Shown here piece by piece: positions 5,361-55,015 of a DNA stretch of 61,330 nucleotides (positions are counted from its first letter, which is position 1; each line of letters opens with the position of its first letter). The translations under genes and the position numbers were made by a program. Source of the stretch: Rozella allomycis CSF55 (Eukaryota). The stretch covers positions 124,001-185,330 of the forward strand of contig KE561300.1 of assembly GCA_000442015.1 (NCBI GenBank), read 5' to 3'. Under the pieces are notes generated by a model. It was not told the DNA's origin and did not search any database. It was given only the letters and a program-made list of their open reading frames with translations.

Positions 5361-6431
5361 ATGAGTAACACGAATTCGCATTTATCTGGTGTTGCTCAGA
5401 CAATGCTAGATACCATAACATATCTTTCAGACGAATCAAAGAATCCGTCTCCAATTTGCAGCTCGTCCTGTATCAAACACCGATCATCCTTTCAGGTTGG
5501 CTTTGTTGAAGACAGGAATAAGAGACATCGTAGACATATGGAAGTAATTGTTCAAAAATCGTCTAATCAAACAGGATGCACATTGTTATGAATATGATTT
5601 TGGTGACGTCCCAGATCAGGGATTCTTTGCTATTTTTGATGGTCACGCTGGTCATGCTGCTGCAAAGTGGTGTGGTGAAAATTTCCATCACGTAAATAAC
5701 TTTTAGTGGCATTTTAGCTATTCTTAAAAAATCTCATCGAGCATTCCGAATTAAGCATCCCAGAGGTACTTAATCGGACGTATCAAGATGCAGATTCAGT
5801 TCTTGATGAAAAAAATGGTTATAAGTCTGGATGTACTTCAGTGACCTGTTTCTTAAGACATGAACGAATTTTGGTTAAAGATTCAGATGGAAGTTCAACA
5901 CCAGTCACTCGGACAGCAGTACGTCTATTCTTCAAACTTTCTAGAGAAAGCTGTATACTGCTAACGCTGGTGATGGAAGAGGAGTATTGTCGTAAGTATT
6001 TAATAGGTATAAAATAGTCGATCGGGCAAAGCAATTCGTTTAACATACGATCATAAAGCCAGTGATCCAACAGAAAAGCAGAGGATTATTGAAGCAAATG
6101 GACATGTTATAAATGACAGAGTTAATGCCGTGCTTGCTGTAACTAGAGCCCTTGGTGATTCTTACTTAAAGGAACACGTAGTAGGGCTTCCATTCACTAC
6201 CGAAGTTGAGCTAACTAAAGATGATGAATTCATTATTATTGCCTGTGATGGAGTAAAGGCGGATTTTCGTTTACATAGCTTTGGGATGTGTGTTCAGATC
6301 AGAATGCAGTGGAGTTAATTGGGCACATTGAAAATCCTCAAGAAGCAGCGAAAAAACTGTTGAATTTTGCATTAGAAAATTGTTCGACTGATAATATATC
6401 CGTGATGGTTATTCGCTTAAATTCGAAATAA
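5361..6431 (+). CDS. PTC1: Protein phosphatase 2C (Ptc1-like), 5 introns
   Basis: [39 protein letters not shown] and TDNISV motifs after removing 26-31 nt GT-AG introns. Confidence 0.93.
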
Positions 6432-21264: not shown

Positions 21265-21687
21265 TCCTAAAGAAAAGGTACCGGGGTATGTGTTTTTGCG
21301 TAATTATGAATTTATGACTAGCACGCACAGCCACGTGGACTTTAATGTGCTTTTTAAGTGAATAGTCATGCTGCATGCAAAAAAATATGTAAAAGTTTTA
21401 AAAGTCTGCCAAATATTGTTCATCAAATAAGGCTAGATATGAATAATCAGTACTTTGTTAATCATTTAATCTCAATTAAATAAAATTAAATAGATTGAAA
21501 AGTCTATTATAGTTGACATAACGCGCCTGGATTGCAAATGTGGTACACTTGGTGGATAATTATAGCGTTGGTCTTACTAATTTTTGGTAAAAACATTTAT
21601 TTAGGCATATAATCGCCCCAATGTAATGATTTATGGTATAAATAAGGTTCATTCTTGATTGATCTAAATAATATAAATTTCATTTCA

Positions 21688-22011
21688 TCAATTCATAGTT
21701 TTCAAAGTCCTGTGCAATGATTCCTGTGCATCCTTATTTGATATACCTGTAGCTACTTTGTGAAACAAGGCCTTTTGACTATTTTTCTTCCCGTTTTTCT
21801 TTTTGTGTTTTTTTAAAAGTGTATTTATATAATCGAGCTTATCTTGCGCTTGACAAGGTTTAACAATAGGGTATTCCGTTATAGTTTGATGATTTCCAGA
21901 ATTATTGGAAGATTCGGAAGGTATTGAATTTGAAGCCAAGTTTAAATTCTGCTTGCTGTCTCTATTTCTTTTCCTTTGATACGGTTGAATCATTTTAGTG
22001 GCTGTGTTCAT
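21688..22011 (-). CDS. Hypothetical basic protein
   Basis: 107-aa ATG-started ORF with a Lys-rich NLS-like stretch, in otherwise empty space; no homology recognised. Confidence 0.35.
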   Translation of the reverse strand: MNTATKMIQPYQRKRNRDSKQNLNLASNSIPSESSNNSGNHQTITEYPIVKPCQAQDKLDYINTLLKKHKKKNGKKNSQKALFHKVATGISNKDAQESLHRTLKTMN

Positions 22012-22649
22012 GGCAGGCTGGTCAACAAAGTCAAAAAGCAAGAAAAAAGGTAAAAGATACTATTTCAATTTATAAAGTTCAAAGAAATGTAGTTCAGTGT
22101 GGAGAAATAATAGAAGATCCATCAGCCGAAATTATTGCTCGATATTCCAAAAACACACTAAAGACACAAGAAAATGACTCTACAGATTCCAAAACAGCAG
22201 TGCAAAATGTAGAATTCGAAAAGAAGCCCAAAATACACAAGCTATTAGAAGAAATAGAAGAATACAGTAAATAGCACGTTTAGTTATGAATAGATGTGTC
22301 TACATATGATGGCACTGACAGAAAGCGCCATTTAATACAAAAGGCAGTGAGCAAAGGCATGCAACTAAAAAATACAAAGATCCCACATAAAATACGAATG
22401 GGCATGTTAAAGAAGCATGAAGAGCGCATGAAAAGAGTACAAGAGCAAGATCCAACGACCAGAATGAGTTTGAAGCAGCTATCTCGGCAGGCTATTGATG
22501 GTCGTTCTCCATTGTCGACGAGCCGACAAGTAGCGCAAAAGTTTATCGAGAAGCGCCTGGAAAAGGATTATCGCCAGCGCGGTCTGAAAGCATCGTTTGG
22601 CAAATACAAGAATGGTGTCTTGTATCTATCAAAGGAGGAAATCAAATAG
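22010..22649 (+). CDS. FAF1: Faf1/C1orf131-like 40S biogenesis factor, 2 introns
   Basis: KIPHKIRMGMLKK and RQRGLKASFGKYKNGVLYLSKEEI; 28- and 27-nt introns link back to the ATG at 22010. Confidence 0.72.
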
Positions 22650-22816
22650 GCGGGACTGGAAACCAAGCCACGTTTTATAAATGCATGTGTAAACAGAGTT
22701 TTAAATTTGAGAATTTTATTTTTTGTATATTTTTTAAAAATTATTTTTTTTTCGTTTTTAATGGATTGAGAGTTTAAATTTTAGCCCTTTTTTCTATTTG
22801 AACCCTGGTAGTTGTG

Positions 22817-27590
<4,774 letters not shown>

Positions 27591-35786: not shown

Positions 35787-36284
35787 TTATTTCCATCGAT
35801 GTACTTCTGTTAGGAGCTCTTCATCAACTATAAATGAGGCATCACCGACATTAAGGTGATCCTCAGATGACTTTTGCTCATCAATTTGTTTCAACTGATC
35901 ATCAATCGATGGAAGACAGAACACTGGTTCTTCCTCACTTTCTTCTTCTTTGGGATCAAATGCGTGTAGCTTTACACGCCATGCTCTCACTAATCCAGCC
36001 CATTGACGAGTCGAAAGTTTTCGCGTTCTATCTGGAGTAGAAGGATGTACACCACGAATCCTTGACTTCTTTGGAATAAGATTTACATAGTTTTGGTATG
36101 CCTTGGTATTCTTTCCAAAATCTATTTGTTTTTGTCTTTGCTTTAAACGATGAGCATCTGTTTCTCTTTCCCTTTTGTAAGGATGATTACTGACGACGGG
36201 TTTTTTCTTTGTTTTTTCTAGAGGGCTTTCCATTCTTAATGGAGACGATGGACAATTATCTTTTAATATTGGGGATTCGCTCAT
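35787..36284 (-). CDS. SLBP: Histone mRNA stem-loop binding protein
   Basis: ETDAHRLKQRQKQIDFGKNTKAYQNY...HPSTPD...STRQWAGLVRAWRVKLHAFDP = SLBP RNA-binding domain; alternative in-frame ATG at 36317. Confidence 0.9.
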   Translation of the reverse strand: MSESPILKDNCPSSPLRMESPLEKTKKKPVVSNHPYKRERETDAHRLKQRQKQIDFGKNTKAYQNYVNLIPKKSRIRGVHPSTPDRTRKLSTRQWAGLVRAWRVKLHAFDPKEEESEEEPVFCLPSIDDQLKQIDEQKSSEDHLNVGDASFIVDEELLTEVHRWK

Positions 36285-36315
36285 CGCAAGGTTGACGAAA
36301 ATTCCAAGTTGCCCC

Positions 36316-36536
36316 ATGGATTTTGAGGACGACTTTGAAGAAGTTCTTGATGAAGTACAATTGGAATCGACGAAACAAGCGTTAAAAACATTCTATTTAG
36401 TCGCCCCTATACTTGGATTGTTCTTGGGCAAACGGCTAGTTCGAAGTTGTAAACTATACAATCAAAATTATGACTAGTATGTTGGCATTTTATCGGCAAT
36501 GTTCCCATATTTTGTTTTAAATACCTAAAGAAATAA
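36316..36536 (+). CDS. Small membrane protein, Mim2-like (mitochondrial outer-membrane import), 1 intron
   Basis: Acidic N-terminus then ESTKQALKTFYLVAPILGLFLGKRLVRSLCW after a 29-nt intron. Confidence 0.5.
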
Positions 36537-36587
36537 TACATGCACTGCGCAAAAGTAAATTCTCCTAATTTTCTTAATTTTTCATCT

Positions 36588-38526
36588 ATGATTTCATTGT
36601 TCAATATTTGCTTATCATACCTCCTCTTTAATATCATATGTTGTGACCATTCATTTCAACAAATTTATGTAGAAACCTGCCCGTTAGTCTTAAACCAAGA
36701 AAGGAAGTACGGATGTTTGGATGGGTCATTTGTATTGGAAGGACCAATAATATGTATGGAGACAGCTGAAAAAGCTTATAACTTATATAAATCTTCAAAT
36801 ATTCGCCCATGTGTGGTAGTGTTTAAAAATCAACTTCCAGAAATACGTCAATTGGCGAGTTACGACATAAAACCGCTCTCCGTTGTTATTTTGAACAAAA
36901 CTTTGGAAAATTATCCAGACAACAACATTGAAATTTCTAGTCTTTATGAATTTCACAGTTCATTTCCCATTGTTTATGTGAGAAATGAAAAAGATGTTCT
37001 GAAAGTTAAAGATTCATGTGAAAAAAATAAAAAATATAGTTTATAAACTTCACCGAACATTGGTAGAGTACTTTCCAGAATGGATGCCTCAGGATCCAGC
37101 AGTGTGCTGTCCTGTTTATCTAGAGGTATATGTGTTCATTGATGAATACAGGATTTTGCAAGCCAATAGGAGGCCAGAATATATTAAGCTCATTAAAAAA
37201 TGTCGAAGAAACAGGGTTTTTGTTAACCGGGTTACTGGATTCGCGTTCACTCTTTCCATATCTTACTGAAGGCGTTTATTCACATGTTTCATCCTTAGTT
37301 TTACTGTTGAGTGTCTTTGAGGCTTTAAGTAAGGTAAAATCACCTGTTGTGATCGAAACAAGGTGACAAGATCGGACTTTAAGCACAACGTCCATTTCCT
37401 AGCGCTTTCCGCTGAGCAATATGGTCAAACTGGCAGCAAGAGATTTTTGAAAGATTTACATGATTGTAATAGAGACCCAAATTTATACCATTGTCAGTCT
37501 AAATTTATTTCAAATACTGAATATCTTGCTTTTAATCATTCAAAATTAAAAGGGATTATAGATCTAGGAGCCCTTAGAAGCAACAAACCATATATTAGAT
37601 TTAGTGATTCCAATTCACAATTTTTGGTAGAAAAGTTACAAAATATCTCCACCCCTTCTATTGTATATCAGCCAATTCAGATTGATTCTTATGAATTTTT
37701 ATCGTCTTTTAACTCTAAAATTCCGAAAATATCACTTAGCGACGTTTCCAAAGTAAAAGAGACACCATTAAACTTTGCCTTCCTTGATGACTTGGAATCA
37801 TATTTGCAAGATCAAAAAGACCAAGTTATTTCTAATTTATGCCAAATTGGAACTAATGTGGCCACTTTATTATATCAACTTTCTACTGAAAAGTTGACTA
37901 GCGTTACGGTGGATTGTAAACTGGTACAAACTCATTAATAACACTATAGATCGAAGATTTTTTACATTGCTTCTCTTCAAATTTCAGTTGTCCTATTATT
38001 ACAGATTTATACCCGGTTGGTACGTTCTTCATTTTATTATTAGAGGCACTGAACTACCAAGGAGAGTGCTACATAATCCCCGTGTGTTTAGACCATTTCT
38101 ATTTTCTTCTTTAACCGAGGCAGTTTTCTTATATTTTTCAAAGAAAACAGTAACAAACAGTACTGATATATCATGCAAAGATCACAGTGATTGTAGCGGG
38201 ACGGTAATATGGCATCGAATAATTTAATATTAAGGCTGTGTGTTTTGACAATTTTTGCAAAAATACACAAACTTATAATATAAACAGTTATGGACCGGGC
38301 ATTTATTTTGATAATGATGATGGTTCATGGAAGGCAACAAACGATGAAGTTGGATACGTAACTAGCACGTAAAGATGTCTTTCTCTACAAACAAAGATTT
38401 GATTCTCCGATTTTAGAAGTTGTAGTAATCCCAAGCACACCGGTATACGCTATTCAAATCTGTGCGTCGTTATTTGTAATAGTAATTGGAACACTAGTAA
38501 TGAGCCAAATACTAAAAAGGCTATAG
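36588..38526 (+). CDS. NCSTN: Nicastrin (gamma-secretase subunit), about 7 introns
   Basis: Signal peptide; CPLVLN...YGC, CKPIGGQNI, LDSRSLF, LLSVFEALSK, AEQYGQTGSKRFLKDL; C-terminal TM helix. One junction (about 37039-37068) is uncertain. Confidence 0.85.
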
Positions 38527-38556
38527 TATTAATTATGAAAATAAAACCTTATTTAT

Positions 38557-38875
38557 TTATTTCTTTCCAGACTTCTTGATTTCAACTGGTTCAATGGCTG
38601 AAAGTCAAAATAAATGATATAGCTTACTGTGGGGAAGAGATTCTCTTAGTTTTTTAGCCTTAGAAGGATCATTTAAAACCAAAGTGTATAAATACTTTGA
38701 ACAGCGAACCTGAGGTGAAAAGAGATAGTGACGAATACCTTAAATTTAACTTGATTCTTTTCATTCTTTTTGATTCTGATCGATTTAACGTCAGCTCTTT
38801 TGGTGATGTTAATAAATTCTTTTAAATCGTAGACTTGTTTTGGCTTATATAATCGCAAACAAAACTTGTTACCAT
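38557..38875 (-). CDS. RPL38: 60S ribosomal protein L38 (eL38), 3 introns
   Basis: [12 protein letters not shown]...[15 protein letters not shown]...[10 protein letters not shown]. Confidence 0.96.
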
Positions 38876-39116
38876 TTTTTTTCAGTCCGACCAGGGTAGG
38901 GAGAAATTTCATAAATGGTAGCAGCAGAAAAATTGTTATCTTTCGAAACCACTTCTTCTTTCTGATTATTTGTTGACTGTTACCTTCTCGATGTATGATA
39001 TTTTTTCATTCGCATTTTTTGATACAAAGTTACAAACCAATGGATTGAGGACATAATATACAGACTACAGTTACACTCAACTTTTGGCATTTCTTTATTA
39101 AATCTATTAATTTACG

Positions 39117-39649
39117 ATGGCTAATTCCCTTGAAAAGCAAATTTTCGAAATGAATCGAATTCAATTTGGAATGTCTCAAAATAGCAAAACGGTCTTAACT
39201 TTAGTCAGATTCAAATCATTTCGATTAAAAGATGTAAAAAATAAGTTTTTTTGTAGTAGTCTTACGAGCCCCATGAACTGGCTGCCTTTTCCAGGAAGAC
39301 AATCCCAAATGTGAGACAACCACCCATTAAAGTCAAAAAACTAGATTTATTTAAAATGTTTCATGTGCCATTAAGATTACAGTATAAGGTACTTATTATG
39401 ACTAGTCATCTTATCGGAACCTTGAATTGTGCAATAGATTTGTCGACAGTTTGGGACGTATTCAAGGGAGACATATCACTGGCTTGGAACATTATCAACA
39501 CAGAGCCGCAGAACGTGCAGTAAAACTCGCGCGCCATTTCGGTACTTAATTGATTTGATGAATCAATAGGGGTCATGCCTTATACATATAAAAAAGAATT
39601 CACCATGGAATCAGTCTTAAAATCTAGTCACGAGAAACCTAATGAATAA
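39117..39649 (+). CDS. RSM18: Mitochondrial ribosomal protein bS18m, 3 introns
   Basis: YK|NLELCNRFVDSLGRIQGRHITGLEHYQHRAAERAVKLARHFGVMPY matches the S18 core. Confidence 0.8.
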
Positions 39650-39711
39650 ACTCATTTGTATTTACTGCTTATTGAAAGTGAATTTTGGAATTTCGCAGTC
39701 GCAATTAAAGT

Positions 39712-40843
39712 ATGGTTCATAGCGATATTTCTTATGACGAGTCCTTTATTGAGAAAATTGATTACAAATACATCGAGAATGATGCAACTGCTGATGAGTT
39801 AGATAAAATGGTTACCCTTCTCCGGTAAACTTAGCCGCGTGTTCATAAATAAATAGGTCAGGGAAAATAGGATTTTATCCAGACCTTCTAAAGCAAGCTG
39901 AAGCAAAGTTACTCATATTAAGACCCGAAAAATGGTTTGAAATTGTTAGGTAACAGCTAATTATAAAAAACAAGAGTCCAGAGAATAGAAATAGGATCGA
40001 CATGGAAGATCTAAAAGAAATTAATATGGATATTCTAGTAATTTGACATATTGTGTAATTACAGGATTGGGCTTCCAAAATTCCTTCGAGTCAATTTACT
40101 AAGAATTCGGTCCTTTCGAACCAATTAAGGATAAAAGGAAACGAGGCTTTGAAATCCAATGATTTAGATGAGGCCATTAATATGTACAGTGAGAGTCTCA
40201 AATTGAATGAATCTTTTGTAACCTTGAATAATCGATCTTTGGCTTATTACAAAAGGGAGATGTTCAAAGAGGCTGAAATGGATGCTGAAAGATCGCTGCG
40301 CATAGAAAACACCTCATTAAATTATAAGTGTTTTCTAAGAAGGGGCGCGGCGAGAATTAAATTGGGAAAGTAACCACACCTTATAGAATTGTTAGGTATT
40401 ATGAAGCTATAGAGGACTTTCTTCAACTTTTATCTATAGAATATCATGAAGAGTATTTAAAATATCTTGAGGAAGCAGAAGATAAGTACATTGACGCGGA
40501 AGGTGTTCGTGGAAAAGATCTACCAAATGGATGTACAGAAAAAAATATACAAAGACAAAAGAAACTAAAAAGTTTGTTTAATAGTAAGAAAAAAGCGAAA
40601 CCTCAAAAAATTCACATTATTGAAATCGACGATGAGACCGAAAAGGATACCGATAAACCCCTACTCAATGATTCTGCAAAGCAAAGTAATTTTCTGGATG
40701 TTGATCCTCGACTGAAATCAATGGAAAGTATGCTCATTATAAATAAAAATGCGGAAAGACATGAAGACCAAGATACATTTTCTTTGAAGACTGACAAATC
40801 CAATGTGACTTCCAACCCGAAAATAATTGAAATTATTCCTTAA
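39712..40843 (+). CDS. SPAG1: SPAG1-like TPR co-chaperone (dynein-arm assembly), 4 introns
   Basis: N-terminal IDYKYIE...LRSGKIGFYPDL block typical of SPAG1, then a TPR clamp KGNEAL...NNRSLAY...KCFLRRG. Confidence 0.75.
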
Positions 40844-41059
40844 TCTAAAAATAAAGCCAATTAATTTGAAAACTTGATATCTTTCTATATTTTATTCCGA
40901 GCACTTTGCTTTGTTATAGGTTTTTTACCAGGGCCCAGGGTAAAATCCAGACTATATAGCAACACAAACCTAAAACTATATGGGATCTGGAATATCACTG
41001 TTGTCATCTCTTATTTTTTATATTTTGTTGAGGGTTGTCATAAAGACAGGGGTGCTGGA

Positions 41060-43041
41060 ATGACGTCCAGATATAACTTAATTCTAAAGAAAAAGGACAA
41101 CGTATGAAAATTATACTCTTTAAATTTTAGCCTCGATGGTTAAACGAATTGTATAAACATCCTGAAACTGGGAATACACACTATGAAGGAATCGATCTTT
41201 TTGATGATCAAGACATTAATCCAAGCGACAAAATCATTAAAATTGGTGATATTGTGTACTTGTTAAATATTAACAATCAAAATTTTCCTTATATCGGTCT
41301 CGTAAAGGACTTGTATGAGACGAATGACAAATTGAAATGTGTGCAGACCCAATGGTTTTATCGGAGAATGGATATAGAAAATTTCAGTGACAGGGTGCTC
41401 GTGAATCCCTTAAATGGAAATGTTATAACCAATGAAAAGTTCGTCACAGATGACAATGAGATATTTTTGAGCGAGCATTGCGACATTAATTATGTCGGTT
41501 CAATAACGAGGAAATGCTATGTATATCAAGATAATGTTGAAGCATTACAAGCTTCACTTCGGCAGGGCGCATACAATTCAAACGAAAGCATAGAAAAGTT
41601 TTCCGGGATGCTAGAAAATGATCAATATATTAAATCTAATCTCGTAAATCCTTTTCCATTTCATATTTGTAACTTGAAATACAATGTTGGTGCAAAAGCG
41701 AGTCCCCCGGAATTCTCCATTTTGGACGAAATAAATAAGATAGATTTTGTGTCCCAATTAAAAAATATAGAAGAAAACCATGATAATATTGAAAAGGAGA
41801 ACATTAATGAGATTTTCATGCCCATTAACAAGGAGGGGGACGATGCTACCGAATCGATGAAAAATAGCACTGATATAATTGACAAAGAAATAAATCACAA
41901 TCCAACAGAATTTCAAAATGATTTCAAAAAGAAGAGAAAGAAAGTAAAGGATTCTGAAGACGAAGAATATGTACACAATTTACAAGGTACTCTTTTTGGC
42001 ATTCCTATGAAAGTAGAATTTGAAAGCGATTATGAAGAGACATTAAATAATGCTTTAAACACAAAAAGAAGATCAGTTTCTGAGAAAAGGCTAATACTGA
42101 CATCACAAGAGCAACCAAAACAAAGCGAATCAATAGAAAAATACTTAGAAGAGCTTTATAAGATCAAGACGATGCTTTTTGAGCTTTATGACAAAGTCGC
42201 TACCAAGGAACTTAATGCGCCACTGTTGAAAACCAACCACATCCAAATCGACGATAAATTTTCCAGGTAAATCATTTGCCGATTTTAAACGAGAAACAAT
42301 ATTTATCACAGCAATCAAATGATGGATGTTCAAAGTTTTGTTCAAGTTCCAAGTCGCGATGCCCAAAATCATTCTGCGCGCATGGCGACAAATTCTGTTC
42401 TCAGAGATCATGTGTTTGACAAATTAAAGAGAATGGAGTTCAAAAATCATAACGAATGTTTAGATGACATTTTATTAGACAAGATTCAGAAAATCAAGGC
42501 AAGAGCACCAATCGCTCCAATTTCCGTGGGTCAAAATAACTACTCGTTCAATAGCTGCCATTCTGGTTATAATATGACCTCAAACATTCCTTCTACTTCT
42601 TTTTTTCAATCTTATGGTCCAAATAACCAGTATAGCTATTCTGGACTACCCAGACCGTTTTCCATGCCTAATGCGGCTTCCGATGTTGAAAACAATATTC
42701 TTCCTAGCAATCAATACACACAACCTAGATTTTCTAACAATATGATACCTCCAATTACCCATAATCATAATAATGCTCTTAGACCGTCACAATTTGGAAT
42801 ATCTAGTAAACAATTTTAGTAATTTTCAATAGCACCAACAGCCACAATCGCCGATAAATTGAATATTTTGAGTAAATTAACTGCAAAGCGCCTTTTGTCC
42901 GACGATTTAAAGAGAAAGTGCAAACAACTTTTGTTCAACACATCTGATCCCCAACACCCTTGGCTAGATGGAGTTCTTTCATTGTGCGTAGAAACAAACG
43001 ATTTTCAGGAATGCGCGGAATCTCTGCAAATGATTCAGTAG
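41060..43041 (+). CDS. BAH-domain chromatin protein, 3 introns
   Basis: IKIGDIVYL, PYIGLVKDLY, QWFYR, NEIFLSEHCD, SITRKCYV. Confidence 0.8.
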
Positions 43042-49899: not shown

Positions 49900-52800
49900 C
49901 AATCTATTTCCATGTACTGACGTAGTTAATTCCGTCCCATCCAATTTAGCCAGCGTGTAACTTCCGTTCCCATGGTGTCGAACAATCATGTAGGGCCCTC
50001 TATAGCGATTCTTGAATTTTCTTCCAACATTGATGGCTCAAAACATTCTTCAAAAATCAAAACCAAATCTCCCTCAATAAATGGATTTTTTCTTATATTC
50101 TTTTTATCATTGTACCATCTCATATTCTTTATTCTCGACTCAACAATATTCTCCTTTGCTATTTCTAAATCTTCTGGCAACTTTGCCAATTGCTTTATTC
50201 TCAATTCCAACAATTCTTCTCTAAAACCGCCACTCTAGCGCATACCACGACAAGATATCCATCTCGGCAGGTAAAATACAATTTCGACCGAACATTAGAG
50301 TAAAAGGAGCATATCCAGTAGACTTCTTTATGGTCACATTATTGGCCCAAAATGCCGAATGGAGATATTCCGGCCACAAACCTTTCTTCTCTTCCCCAAG
50401 CCATCTGCTTAATGCCTTCACAAGAGGCTGATGCCCTCTCTCAACCACTCCGTTCGCCTGTGGGTGATACGCGGTCGTAAATACAGTAGGAATTCCGTAA
50501 TTTTCCAGAAACAAATTTATCTCTTCTTCATTCATCTCTCCATTGTCTGCAACAAATCTTCCCACACAACCATATCTCGCAATGTATACTTTTAGGAACT
50601 TAGCCACTCCAGAACTTTTCTTCGATTTTTAAGCTTTTCCATCAACAAAACCAGTAAGAGCATCCCTAGCGTTTACGAAATAGTTCTCCCCATTCTTGCC
50701 GTTCGGCATCTTTACTAAATCAACGTGAACAATATGTAAAACTCCGGTATTAAATAAATTATGGTTCAATGGTTCTTCGACTGACAACAACTGGCATTCA
50801 ATACAGCTCTTTATATAATTCGCGACATCAATATACATGTTTTCCCAATAATAATTCAAAGTTAACTCTTGTATGTTCCGTCTCTTTCCCTATGTCCTCC
50901 TGTTACTCCTTCATGGAATTCGGCCAGTTATCTCATTTTTAAGTCTTCATCCAGAATCACTCTACTCGGCGGCAAATTAAAAGACGCCGATCTTTTCCAC
51001 AACAAACCATTACTAATAAATAAATCTTGACTCATCATTTTTATTTTTTCAAACTCTTTGTCCGAAAGATGTTCCGGTTTAGATAATGTCATTAAATACT
51101 CGCACAAACTTTACCATATTCCAGTATAATTCGTAAGGTCCAATGTAACATGTCTAACAAATATATCTAAATTCGCAATCCTTTTCTCTTTTAATAGCAT
51201 TGTCATTGCGTCTGCTTCCTTATCAATATCTTCTTTCTCAACACAAGCATAGCGTCTCCGGCTTAACCCATCGGCTTTATTCTTGGCTGTGTCGACATAT
51301 CGTGCTGCAAAATTAAAGGATCGAATAAACGCAATCCACCTAGCACCGTTGGATCAGGAAACTCCTCAGCATTAAACCAGTATAAAAGTGCTCTGTTATC
51401 TACCTCTAACCTAAACTTAGTTCCAAATATATAGGGCCTAAATTTCTTTAAATTATGAACAACGGCGAGACATTCTTTCTTCACAATAGAATAATTCCTT
51501 TCGGTGGCATTGAACAACTTACCTTCAAATTTGCATGGGTGCCTCTTTCCATCTGGTTTTACCTGTTCCAAAATGCCTCCCAATCCGTCCTTGCTAGCGT
51601 CATAGGTGGTCGATTCTCAACATCATTATAGTCTAGCTCTTGAACGATCGGGTCAGAAGCCACAACTTTCTTCAAATATTCGAAAGCTCTCTCGTGCTTC
51701 TCCAACCAAATAAATTCAACATCATTCTTCAATAAATTCAGCAAGGGTGCAGCAAGCGCAGAAAATGAATAAATCAAACTTTTATAATGCTTGACAGTTC
51801 CTCAAAACGAATGTACATCCTTCGTCGATTCAGGTCTGGGCCATTCCAATATTTTCTCCCTGTTTCTTGTACATATCCTTCTGCCTTCGGCATTACACAA
51901 ATAGCTAAAAACCTCAATTTCGGGAACACAAAAAGAACATTTCATCCCACTAACGGTCAGCTTAGAACGCAAAATCCTCTCAAATATTTTCTCCAAGTCT
52001 TCCAAGTGTGAACGAATAAATTTTCGTATTCCATTTTCAACTTCATCGTTATTCGTCGTTACTCTCTCTCCTTTCACAGCAATATCATCTATATATCGCA
52101 TGTTTCCGGAATTAAATCTCGCAGCACTGTTGTGTTCACTCTCTGCGCGACAGCTACTGAGTTCGTCCAACCTTGAGGCAAGCAAGTAACACGAACAAAT
52201 CCAACCGGGGTATTCATGGCGGTCAGATCGCGATCTTTAACGTCGATAGGAATTCGATCAAAAAAACTATAAAAGTCCAACATCGAGTACACTCTTCCCC
52301 CGGCGAATCTTTCACTCATCTTGTCACAATTCGGAATATGTGCACAGTCTCGTATAGTCACTATATTCAGCGGAATAACACGCTGGATCATTCTCAACGA
52401 CCCGTTACGCTTTCGTAGAACAAACCAACGGTTTGCATACGCACTTTCACAATATTCCAGAAATCCGGCGTCCAATTTCTTCCTCAACAACGCGATCACG
52501 TCTGCCAGCTCTTTTGCAACATATTTCGGGCAAGGTCGTTTCCAGGGCGTATGTTCGACAACATGAATTCTCACAGGCTTGAAAATTTCGGATGAAAGTT
52601 TTCCTTTTAAGTTATCATCAAACGTAAAAATACTCTCGTACTTCTTCAATAAAATTCGTAATGCTTCTCGTTCTTTTTCGTTTAGCAACGTCGAACTTGT
52701 TAACATATCCAGCTGTTCGTCTGTTAATTTTCTCATACTCTCTCGTCTCTCAGCAGCCATTTCTTCCACTTGATCTAACTTCACAGCGACGTCTTCAGGG

Positions 52801-55015
52801 ACCATAGCTTGTGGGTGAATTGTCTCGTTTACTTTCTTGTGGCGTCTTTTGTTTCCGCTCGCTCTTCGGAATCTTGTTGACCTTGCCTCTAAAGCTCTTG
52901 GCAATATTCATATCTATCTCAAACAACAATTTTTCACCATTTTTAATAAATTTATTAACGTCATTTTCTTCATTTATCTCAATCTCTTCTCCGAAACTCG
53001 GACTTTTCTCACTAGACTCGACAATTTCTTCCGCAGAATCTTCTTGCATCCTGAACAACTGTGTCTTCGCGGTTCCCTTCCACGCAACCCCGTTCATCAC
53101 GTTACACTTCAGCTGGCACGACTTCCCGTCTGCTCCTTGAATGTCCAGCTGCACATCGCCATTCGGAAAATTCTGAGTTATTACCGATGCAGCACACTCG
53201 AAAGGTTTTCCTAATAAAACATTAAAAATTGACTCCCCTTGCGTGACATAACACGGGACCTCGACTGTCACCCCATGAAAAGTAATGGGTAGTGCATGAA
53301 TGCAGCCAACTGCCATTCGGATTTAACATATTTATGGTCGCCTTAGCGTCAATACCGCCTAACAACTGCAAGTAAACACTCTCACTCATGACATTGATCT
53401 CCGAGCCGGAATCAATTGTCACTTCAACCTCCACGCCGCCGACTTTGGCAGGTACTTTCACAACTTTAGTCCTGTAAATCCCTTCTGACCTAAATCTTCT
53501 CACAATTGCTTCATGCATTTCTTCCACATGCTCCATCTCTTCTTGGCTCACTGCATTCACTTTCACTGCTTCCACAGGTACTCTTATTTTTCAGAAATAA
53601 TGCCAGATCCTTCGAAATACTTGGCGATGCTCCTAAAATCTGTTCAATGCTCATCTCCACCTTCTGACTTAGAATTCTATTCATGATTGCCTTAGTGTCA
53701 ACGATTTGTTCTGCAGGACTCTTGTGCATGGTCTTCTTCTTCATCTCCAAAGCTGGTGGTCTTGGGATCGGCATTGTTTCTGGTAATTTTAATGTCACCT
53801 CCTTCTTATCTATTTTTCGTCTTTTCATTTCCTCATCCAACTCCTCGTTCATCCATTTTGCGCCATCACCTCCGCGTCGATTGTCTCACCTTCTACCTCT
53901 TTCATAATCCTCACGAAGACATCATTCTCACTCGGCATTCTTGGTGCTTCTTGCATCTTGAACAACATTGCTCTTGGCTGGTTAGTCTTCTCCTGAAATC
54001 TTCGCTCAGCTTCAACTCTCATTCCTCCGTTCCCGAAATTGATCTTCAGTCGATTCCCGTCACAGTCGCAGATAACTTTGCTTCCATCTCTCTCAACACT
54101 CTGCACAATCCCATTTTTCACTGCCGCTTCAAACAATAAACAATTCTTCAAATACGGGTTGGTGTCGCCACAGTAAATACATTCATTTGAACGTTGCCCA
54201 GTAGTTACATTTTGCGGTGCTTCCATCATTCGATCGCGCCGTGATCGCCAGCGCCATCGCCTGAAACAGTCCAGAGAGATCTGCAACAGATGCTACGGAA
54301 TTACTTGACTTCGTGACTGCGTGTACAACATTAGCTTCACCCTTCGTCTCCTGAACTTCTTTTTCTTCTACGTTCTCAAACTCGAAGGTCTTAATGTTCT
54401 TTAAGGTCGTCAACAGCTGAGTAGACTCATCGTCGATTTCTTGGTTGTCTTCGATGATGCGTATCAGGGATTTGATGCTCTGCTTCTTCACGTCATCCGA
54501 CGTGTAGTCGCCAAAGACTTTCTTCACTAATGTTTCTGGTAAGCTTAAAAACAGTAACTTCACAAGATTTCTCTCAATTAGTCAACTTCGCTCTCATCCA
54601 TACTCTCGTACATAGCCTTCAAGCTCGACAATAAAATGCTCACATCGTCCGACCTCTTGGCCAGGCTCATAAAATCATCCATTCCGTACTTTACGTCAAA
54701 CTTCCCATACTTGGCTTTTATTGACCTCGTTAATCTTCTAAAACTTCTCCCAAGTGACCTGTTCCTCTTCCGCAGCTCTCACTCGGTCAACCAACTCCTT
54801 CACATCCTCAAACAAATACTTCTCACACATGTACGGAAAGATACTAAACACTTCTTCAATACTTTTGCCTTGCATAACCATCAGCTTCTCGTACTCCCAC
54901 ATGAACTGGCCAACTTTCTTTCCTGCGAAAGGGGTAAAACCACCTTCCACGATGTTCGCACCACTTATGAAAGTGCCAGAAGGGGCGCGCGACTTAGACT
55001 CTTTAGCAGTAGACA
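49900..55015 (-). mobile_element. Degenerate Ty3/gypsy LTR retrotransposon internal region
   Basis: Order gag - protease (IDSGSEIN) - RT (LPQGW, YIDD) - RNase H (ERNYS..KECLA) - integrase (VHVDL, ADNG, YHPQANGVVER); multiple frameshifts; bounded by n49899 and n55016, LTRs not seen. Confidence 0.93.

What the first reader, a model, noticed from the sequence alone, without database searches (positions are those of the whole stretch)
39389..39417. Non-AG acceptor: 29-nt GT...CGG intron in mitochondrial S18
Seen: a frameshift follows TAT AAG|gtactt. The only nearby AG would give a 17-nt intron, far below every other intron here. Cutting at 29 nt (...ttatcgg|AAC) gives DLFKMFHVPLRLQYK-NLE, which fits the D.F...YKN spacing I recall for fungal Rsm18. 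Inference: when no AG falls in the ruler window, another NG dinucleotide is used.
Basis: partly seen in the sequence, partly recalled or inferred. Interest (0 to 1): 0.82.

Follow-up and report, generated by a model that had tools for sequence, protein, structure and literature searches.

The report
Tiny intron apparently ending in GG
A 29-base intron in a fungal parasite's mitochondrial ribosomal protein S18 gene most likely ends in GG instead of the near-universal AG, but no RNA data were available to show which splice the cell actually makes.

Summary
The gene at 39117-39649 (+) encodes mitochondrial ribosomal protein bS18m. Its only database hit is named Rozella allomycis CSF55. The reading frame changes after ...TAT AAG|GT at 39388/39389.

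Three cuts restore the S18 frame:
- 29 nt, GT..GG (39389-39417)
- 17 nt, GT..AG (39389-39405), which the deposited protein model uses
- 41 nt, GTG..AG

The GG is genuine DNA. An independent contig from another sample and study matches 39394-40237 with no differences.

Two lines favour the 29-nt cut.
1. In 116 of 120 fungal bS18m proteins the invariant D and the N of YKN span exactly 16 residues. The 29-nt cut gives 16 and the 17-nt cut gives 20. All four exceptions have their indel exactly at YK|N. A fungal profile scores 65.9 bits (29 nt), 60.6 (17 nt) and 57.8 (41 nt).
2. The window's 46 candidate introns are 24-33 nt long, with no excess below 24 nt. Fourteen of them bypass an out-of-frame AG lying 12-20 nt from the donor.

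Against it, no RNA run holds the gene and GT-GG introns are rare. The S18 core alone also aligns well with the 17-nt form. I put the 29-nt GT..GG reading at about 0.55.

The parts
39117..39649 (+). Coding span of the mitochondrial small-subunit ribosomal protein bS18m gene (ATG 39117-39119, stop TAA 39647-39649), four exons
   Evidence: The deposited protein P0001 is reproduced letter for letter from these exons using its own intron choices. Pfam PF01084 match. Closest solved relatives are mitoribosomal bS18m/MRPS18C.
39117..39233 (+). Exon 1 (my model; the deposited model ends it at 39191)
   Evidence: The profile of 120 fungal bS18m proteins scores the 26-nt intron-1 model 4.6-4.7 bits higher than the 68-nt one (6.1-6.2 bits with the 116-protein profile). 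The retained residues align to the family's F-R-x4-Y-x-P-H-D-L stretch.
39234..39259 (+). Intron 1, 26 nt, GTA..TAG. An AG ending at 23 nt is bypassed, because using it would leave an in-frame TAG.
   Evidence: The indel differences between runs at 39241 and 39246 fall inside it.
39260..39388 (+). Exon 2. It ends ...LQYK and carries the invariant D 13 residues before the Y.
39389..39417 (+). Intron 2 as proposed: 29 nt, GTACTT...ATCGG, with 3' end GG. Equivalent cut: 39388-39416.
39389..39405 (+). Rival intron 2: 17 nt, GT..TAG, used by the deposited model. It keeps 39406-39417 as four extra codons (SSYR).
39418..39541 (+). Exon 3, the S18 core, starting at the invariant N
39542..39569 (+). 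Intron 3, 28 nt, GTACTTA..ATAG, phase 1. It shares its first 7 nt with intron 2 and has a 7-8 bp internal hairpin (-4.4 kcal/mol).
39570..39649 (+). Exon 4 with the stop codon

Best explanation
Intron 2 of the bS18m gene is an old phase-0 intron sitting between the K and N codons of the family's Y-K-N motif. In this organism spliceosomal introns are tiny and uniform (about 26-31 nt), and AGs lying closer than about 24 nt to the 5' splice site are passed over. Here the nucleotide before the last G of the intron is G instead of A (CGG|AAC). The productive mRNA is made by exon ligation at that GG, 29 nt from the donor, and it joins ...TAT AAG to AAC. Shown: the letters, the frames, the GG in independent DNA, the protein spacing in relatives and the length distribution of ORF-inferred introns. 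Inferred: that the spliceosome ligates at GG, that distance from the 5' splice site or branch region rather than the AG decides the site, and that the retained terminal G makes this tolerable.
For: (1) Protein spacing. In 120 fungal bS18m proteins (best 120 of 333 hits) D and N are invariant in 120 of 120. The D..N segment is exactly 16 residues in 116 of 120. The 29-nt cut gives 16, the 17-nt cut gives 20, and the 41-nt cut by my count gives 12 (hmmalign placed it as 15). (2) The four exceptions all have their indel exactly at YK|N. P0166 has 19 extra residues that begin with V and end with Q, as a translated in-frame GT..AG intron would. P0168 has 3 extra residues ending in Q. P0124 and P0128 lack 4 residues. 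This points to a conserved intron at this codon boundary that annotators often misplace. (3) Profile scores against the 120 proteins are 65.9 bits (29 nt), 60.6 (17 nt) and 57.8 (41 nt). Against the first 62 homologues, found with the deposited 17-nt form as query, they are 99.2, 96.6 and 92.2. (4) Ruler. 46 candidate introns are 24-33 nt long. 43 of 46 use the first AG at or beyond 24 nt. 19 contain an AG ending 12-22 nt from the donor. In 14 of those at least one such AG is out of frame and so must be bypassed (positions 12-20, three of them at 17). There is no excess of AG-ended candidates below 24 nt. (5) The GG is confirmed in a contig from another sample and study. (6) The deposited model is not a strong witness. 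Its intron 1 (68 nt) removes conserved residues, and its overall combination scores 55.9 bits against 65.9. (7) Precedent. GT-GG was the third commonest non-canonical type (38 introns, 0.04%) in a manually curated fungal annotation (PMC11590231, abstract and passages). 'BG' 3' sites are used in yeast lacking Prp18p (PMC10711555, abstract and passages).
Against: No RNA evidence of any kind. The one RNA run laid (X8) gave only 18-20-nt scraps elsewhere in the stretch. The only deposited protein uses the 17-nt GT-AG cut. That form places Y-R-N where relatives have Y-K-N, so the S18 core aligns equally well. The best solved relatives align 'SSYRN' to 'VDYKN', and many hits begin at residue 70. The profile advantage is modest, at 5.3 bits. 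It could reflect ancestry rather than present splicing if the acceptor mutated recently. GT-GG introns are rare wherever counted (0.04%; PMC11590231). AG-to-GG changes strongly impair the second step in yeast (recalled, not from a call). The -3 base here is C, seen in only 2 of 46 candidate acceptors. GG-ended candidates are not enriched in the window (8 of 316).
Confidence: 0.55

Rival explanations
1. The intron is the 17-nt GT..TAG (39389-39405), as in the deposited model. The protein carries four extra residues (SSYR) before the conserved N, with the new Y-R-N standing in for Y-K-N.
For: It has canonical GT-AG ends with the preferred TAG (T at -3 in 28 of 46 candidates). It is in frame with no stop. 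It is the sequence on record. The S18 core aligns without penalty to solved bS18m/MRPS18C chains. Having Y-R directly before N is convenient for this reading.
Against: A length of 17 nt is 7 nt below the shortest candidate intron in the window, and there is no excess of AG-ended candidates below 24 nt. In 14 other candidate introns an AG at 12-20 nt is bypassed. It gives a D..N span of 20 residues, seen in 0 of 120 fungal relatives. It scores 5.3 bits lower. The same deposited model appears wrong at intron 1. If the acceptor was once CAG, the R codon follows automatically from the A-to-G change, so only the Y is a coincidence.
Confidence: 0.25
2. The GG is a recent lesion of a former AG acceptor. 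The gene is now poorly or wrongly spliced (retention, the out-of-frame AG at 49 nt, or a mix of weak 17- and 29-nt products) and may be decaying or only marginally functional.
For: Non-AG acceptors are normally deleterious. No RNA shows productive splicing. The next AG at or beyond 24 nt lies at 49 nt, which breaks the frame.
Against: The rest of the gene is intact. All four exons are open, conserved residues are kept, and introns 1 and 3 are canonical and of ruler length. The same GG is present in two samples. Only one bS18m-like protein of this organism turned up in the searches, so no back-up copy is evident. The genome itself could not be searched.
Confidence: 0.12
3. A 41-nt GTG..TAG intron (39365-39405) is used, deleting eight codons of exon 2.
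For: It has GT-AG ends and is in frame.
Against: It has the lowest profile score, at 57.8 bits. Its GTG donor is unlike the GTA donors that define the 46 candidates. Its length lies outside 24-33 nt. It shortens the invariant D..N span.
Confidence: 0.03
4. Sequencing or assembly error: the true base at 39416 is A.
For: The window carries 13 single N positions and differs from the contigs of X1 at 43 places in 7 kb (24 + 19 on its two long contigs).
Against: The X3 contig (depth about 255, other sample and study) is identical over 39394-40237. X1 held all 140 sampled words of 38900-40300.
Confidence: 0.02

Closest known systems
GT-GG non-canonical spliceosomal introns, as counted in the manually curated Ganoderma lingzhi annotation (PMC11590231, abstract and passages read)
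   Same: The terminal dinucleotides are the same, GT at the 5' end and GG at the 3' end. Both are in a fungus and both are a rare exception among GT-AG introns.
   Different: Those cases are RNA-supported and lie in introns of ordinary fungal length. This one is a 29-nt intron with no RNA evidence, and the only AG nearby lies too close to the donor.
'BG' (CG/GG/UG) 3' splice sites used by yeast spliceosomes lacking Prp18p (PMC10711555, abstract and passages), and TG 3' splice sites in human U2-type introns (PMC2374985, search listing only)
   Same: Exon ligation occurs at a site that keeps the terminal G but lacks the A.
   Different: In yeast these are low-level alternative sites unmasked by a mutant. 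Here the site would be the constitutive, productive one in a wild-type organism. Whether this organism's second-step factors differ was not testable because no genome was held.
Uniform ultra-short introns of other eukaryotes (Paramecium about 25 nt, Stentor 15 nt, chlorarachniophyte nucleomorph 18-21 nt); recalled, from no call
   Same: A narrow length distribution implies that spacing contributes to splice-site choice.
   Different: Those systems are described as GT-AG throughout, as far as I recall. For this organism the library yielded only a remark on two putative ~30-nt introns in its S23 gene (PMC6349667, passages).
Fungal mitochondrial ribosomal protein bS18m (Rsm18 family; Pfam PF01084)
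   Same: The gene product has the S18 core, the invariant D-x12-Y-K-N under the 29-nt cut, and a Y-x-P-H-[DE]-L stretch upstream.
   Different: The nearest relative is only 41% identical. Nothing unusual about the protein itself was found.

Membership tests
Ribosomal protein bS18 / fungal bS18m (PF01084) | Match to the S18 profile above the curated cut-off | tested here: met
   Exon 3 alone scores 37.7 bits against a cut-off of 21, E 2.2e-09. The deposited protein carries PF01084. 70 solved S18 chains match.
Ribosomal protein bS18 / fungal bS18m (PF01084) | Fungal N-terminal signature: invariant D, then Y-K-N, with D..N spanning 16 residues | tested here: met
   Met under the 29-nt cut (16 residues). 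Not met under the 17-nt cut (20) or the 41-nt cut. 116 of 120 relatives have 16.
Canonical U2-type GT-AG intron (29-nt reading) | GT at the 5' end | tested here: met
   GTACTT at 39389.
Canonical U2-type GT-AG intron (29-nt reading) | AG at the 3' end | tested here: not met
   CGG at 39415-39417, confirmed in independent DNA.
Canonical U2-type GT-AG intron (17-nt reading) | Length within the organism's range | tested here: not met
   46 candidates are 24-33 nt long. There is no AG excess below 24 nt (13 of 274). AGs at 12-20 nt are bypassed in 14 introns. The range is inferred from open frames, not RNA.
GT-GG non-canonical spliceosomal introns | GT..GG termini at a junction that restores the conserved protein | tested here: met
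GT-GG non-canonical spliceosomal introns | The junction is seen in RNA | not testable with these tools
   No RNA holder was listed. The RNA run laid gave nothing on the gene.
U12-type (minor spliceosome) intron | Extended 5' splice-site consensus ([AG]TATCCTT, recalled) and a branch site close to the 3' end | tested here: not met
   The 5' end reads GTACTTAT. The consensus is recalled and comes from no call.

The most novel reading that the evidence does not exclude
In this organism the 3' splice site is set mainly by distance, a ruler of about 26-31 nt from the 5' splice site or branch region. The AG is dispensable as long as the last base is G, so an ancient intron can lose its AG and still be spliced correctly and constitutively.
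Probability: 0.25. Interest if true: 0.75.

Novelty: new member of a known kind. Interest (0 to 1): 0.42.

Why it matters
If RNA confirms the 39388|39418 junction, this would be a natural, constitutive non-AG acceptor in an essential gene of an organism with unusually uniform tiny introns. That would give a direct handle on how far spacing can replace the AG in second-step splice-site choice. Practically, it would show that the deposited gene model is wrong at two of three introns, and that GT-AG-only annotation of this genome will misplace or invent splice sites. If the 17-nt junction is found instead, it would be by far the shortest intron in this organism. It would also show that the bypass of early AGs is competition rather than exclusion. 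Either outcome is a cheap and informative experiment.

Tried and rejected
- RNA evidence: no RNA holder was listed for 38900-40300. The one RNA run with the species label (X8, a metatranscriptome) laid only 18-20-nt scraps at 37502-37519 and 41615-41634. This says nothing about expression or splicing.
- Run X5 did not show a contig over the site.
- Whole genome: none is held. Second-step factors, a second S18 copy and a genome-wide intron census could therefore not be examined.
Whether two annotation pipelines share the deposited model is unknown.
- ORF-pair scans for further non-AG junctions were too noisy. They are also blind to junctions like this one, where the upstream frame stays open past the intron. 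The S18 case itself was not recovered as a positive control.
- The apparent 20/23-nt intron at 1254 was rejected after reading the Argonaute motif.
- Hairpin idea: inner parts of 43 candidate introns fold no better than controls (mean z -0.35 against +0.04, one-sided p = 0.09). It was dropped as a general feature.
- Metagenome loci, to see the intron position in DNA of other fungi: the alignment was unusable, and the single-protein scan found 123 pattern matches but no confirmed relative. The conserved intron position is therefore inferred from protein-model anomalies only.
- Earlier notes of this scan: none for this genome or these words.
- Literature: searches found no description of this organism's intron lengths beyond the ~30-nt S23 remark. 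The 2013 genome paper and all supplements were not seen and may hold such data.

Full report
What is there.

The window is AT-rich eukaryotic DNA (GC about 0.31-0.43) carrying genes for an Argonaute/Piwi protein, ribosomal protein L3, a CHD1-type helicase and CRM1. The finding lies in a small four-exon gene at 39117-39649 on the + strand. Exon 39418-39540 alone matches Pfam Ribosomal_S18 (E 2.2e-09). A search with the exon found a single 139-residue protein, 100% identical, named as a hypothetical protein of Rozella allomycis CSF55 and as small ribosomal subunit protein bS18m. The closest solved relatives are mammalian mitoribosomal bS18m/MRPS18C chains (E about 2e-07). No competing long frame lies on the opposite strand.

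The observation.

The frame of exon 2 (39260-39388, ending TAT AAG) differs from that of the S18 core, and the donor GTACTT starts at 39389. AGs downstream of the donor end at 17, 49 and 61 nt only. In the 20-36 nt range the NG dinucleotides are CG (28), GG (29) and TG (36). Three cuts restore the S18 frame:
- 29 nt, GT..GG (39389-39417), giving ...LQYK|NLE...
- 17 nt, GT..TAG (39389-39405), giving four extra residues (SSYR) before the N
- 41 nt, GTG..TAG (39365-39405)

The deposited protein equals my reconstruction with a 68-nt first intron and the 17-nt second intron, letter for letter.

Is the GG real?

No whole genome is held. Of the public runs, X1, X2 and X4 (one sample), X3 (another sample and study) and X5 hold the stretch. 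All are DNA, stored as contigs. When laid on 36000-43000:
- X3's contig record 14 covers 39394-40237 with no differences and no gaps.
- X1's 6170-nt contig covers the site, and none of its listed differences lies between 38314 and 40664. Three of its 19 differences were not listed.
- X1 held all 140 sampled words of 38900-40300.

An assembly error is therefore very unlikely. The only differences inside the gene are indels at 39241 and 39246. They fall within intron 1, as expected for non-coding sequence.

Protein evidence.

An exhaustive search with the deposited protein gave 63 relatives. Fifteen fungal-type ones aligned without any gap between an invariant D and the Y-K-N. A profile search with that alignment gave 333 proteins, of which the best 120 were listed, all fungal bS18m-like. 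After aligning them to the profile:
- D and N are invariant in 120 of 120.
- Y is present in 115 of 120.
- The D..N span is 16 residues in 116 of 120.

The 29-nt cut gives 16 residues and the 17-nt cut gives 20. The four exceptions all have their indel exactly between YK and N:
- One carries 19 extra residues beginning with V and ending with Q, which is what an in-frame retained GT..AG intron would give.
- One carries three extra residues ending in Q.
- Two lack four residues.

I read this as a conserved phase-0 intron at this codon boundary that gene callers misplace in several fungi. It is an inference from protein letters, because I could not fetch the DNA.

Scored against the 120-protein profile, the 29-, 17- and 41-nt forms get 65.9, 60.6 and 57.8 bits. 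With the four anomalous rows removed they get 65.0, 59.5 and 57.1. Against the first 62 relatives, which were found with the 17-nt form as query, they get 99.2, 96.6 and 92.2. The same profiles prefer a 26-nt first intron (39234-39259) to the deposited 68-nt one by 4.6-6.2 bits. The deposited combination is therefore 10 bits below the best one and is a weak witness.

Evidence the other way.

The S18 core by itself does not discriminate. Solved chains align 'SSYRN' to 'VDYKN', and many hits begin at residue 70. The advantage of the 29-nt cut comes entirely from the fungal N-terminal spacing.

The ruler.

I used open frames of at least 40 codons on both sides and GTA donors. Under those conditions AG-ended candidates are enriched only at 24-32 nt:
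- 24-32 nt: 46 of 316 (14.6%)
- 12-23 nt: 13 of 274 (4.7%)
- 33-45 nt: 36 of 569 (6.3%)
- AG dinucleotide background: 5.5%

The 46 single-acceptor candidates are 24-33 nt long. Their counts by length are 1, 1, 7, 11, 8, 9, 3, 3, 1 and 2. The base at -3 is T in 28, A in 13, G in 3 and C in 2. There is no evident branch-site or pyrimidine-tract motif. 43 of 46 use the first AG at or beyond 24 nt. 19 contain an AG ending 12-22 nt from the donor, and in 14 at least one such AG is out of frame, so it must be bypassed for the frame to continue. Those positions run from 12 to 20, and three are at 17.

The one apparent sub-ruler intron (20/23 nt at 1254) was an artefact. The Argonaute motif reads through it, and the true intron is a 29-nt GTAAC..TTTAG at 1276-1304. 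These are ORF-based inferences with some false positives, not RNA-verified introns. Within that limit, a 17-nt intron would be an outlier, and the AG at 17 nt lies in the zone that this organism's spliceosome normally ignores. Intron 1 of the same gene shows the behaviour. An AG at 23 nt is passed over for the one at 26 nt, because using it would leave an in-frame stop.

Most likely mechanism.

The most likely account is that this ancient intron has lost the A of its acceptor. The simplest path is CAG to CGG, which would also explain the in-frame R codon. The intron would still be ligated at the same place, 29 nt from the donor, because spacing positions the 3' end and the terminal G is kept.

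Precedents exist:
- GT-GG was the third commonest non-canonical class (38 introns, 0.04%) in a curated fungal annotation (PMC11590231).
- BG sites are used by yeast spliceosomes lacking Prp18p, which normally suppresses branch-proximal and non-YAG sites (PMC10711555).
- TG acceptors are used in some human genes (PMC2374985, listing only).

For this organism the library yielded only a remark that two putative S23 introns are about 30 nt long and lack usual motifs (PMC6349667).

What remains open.

Without RNA I cannot tell whether the cell uses GG, the 17-nt AG, both, or neither. A recent acceptor mutation rescued by the in-frame cryptic AG is a coherent rival, and the Y-R-N it creates is convenient for that reading. 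GG-ended candidates are not enriched (8 of 316, about 10 expected). My scans for other cases were noisy and blind to junctions where the upstream frame stays open.

Verdict.

My probabilities are:
- 29-nt GT..GG junction is the productive one: about 0.55
- 17-nt GT..AG: about 0.25
- defective or mixed splicing: about 0.12
- 41-nt cut: about 0.03
- sequence error: about 0.02

It is a candidate new member of a known rare class and is worth one RT-PCR.

Noticed in passing
window 39192-39259 vs 39234-39259: The deposited protein model removes a 68-nt first intron. A 26-nt intron with the same acceptor keeps 14 residues that align to a conserved F-R-x4-Y-x-P-H-D-L stretch of fungal bS18m. It scores 4.6-6.2 bits higher, so the deposited model is probably wrong there too.
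   Followed up: yes
window 25710-25767: Two ruler-length units lie head to tail in the CHD1-like gene: a 30-nt GTAACC..AATAG followed directly by a 28-nt GTAAAT..AATAG. This is either one 58-nt intron or two introns with no exon between them, which would be recursive splicing.
   Followed up: no
window 21300-21358, 37005-37068, 6253-6314 (+); 10940-10877, 53581-53521, 51621-51563 (-): There are ORF-joining GT..AG candidates of 59-64 nt, roughly twice the ruler length. They may be a second length class or chance solutions.
   Followed up: no
window 39241 and 39246: Indel differences between runs fall inside intron 1. X3 and X5 have an extra C after 39246, and X5 also lacks one base at 39241. 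The intron would be 27 nt in X3.
   Followed up: partly
proteins P0166, P0168, P0124, P0128 (other fungi): Deposited or predicted bS18m models of other fungi have insertions or deletions exactly at the YK|N boundary. They look like a retained intron, an alternative acceptor and a misplaced boundary, so they are likely annotation errors at a conserved intron.
   Followed up: partly
window 36000-43000: The window differs from X1's contigs at 43 places in 7 kb (24 + 19 on its two long contigs) and at fewer places from X3. The window also carries 13 isolated N positions. This suggests allelic or strain variation in the material behind the assembly.
   Followed up: no
window 22000-26000 and 50000-54000: There is a strong positive GC skew (0.36-0.39) at 22-26 kb. 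At 50-54 kb there is a strong negative skew (-0.27 to -0.31) with higher GC (0.38-0.43). This unusual composition was not examined.
   Followed up: no
window 39389-39417 and 39542-39569: Introns 2 and 3 of the gene share their first seven bases (GTACTTA). Intron 2 holds a 12-nt palindrome centred on the bypassed AG, and intron 3 folds into a 7-8 bp hairpin (-4.4 kcal/mol). Hairpins were not significantly enriched in 43 candidate introns (p = 0.09).
   Followed up: yes
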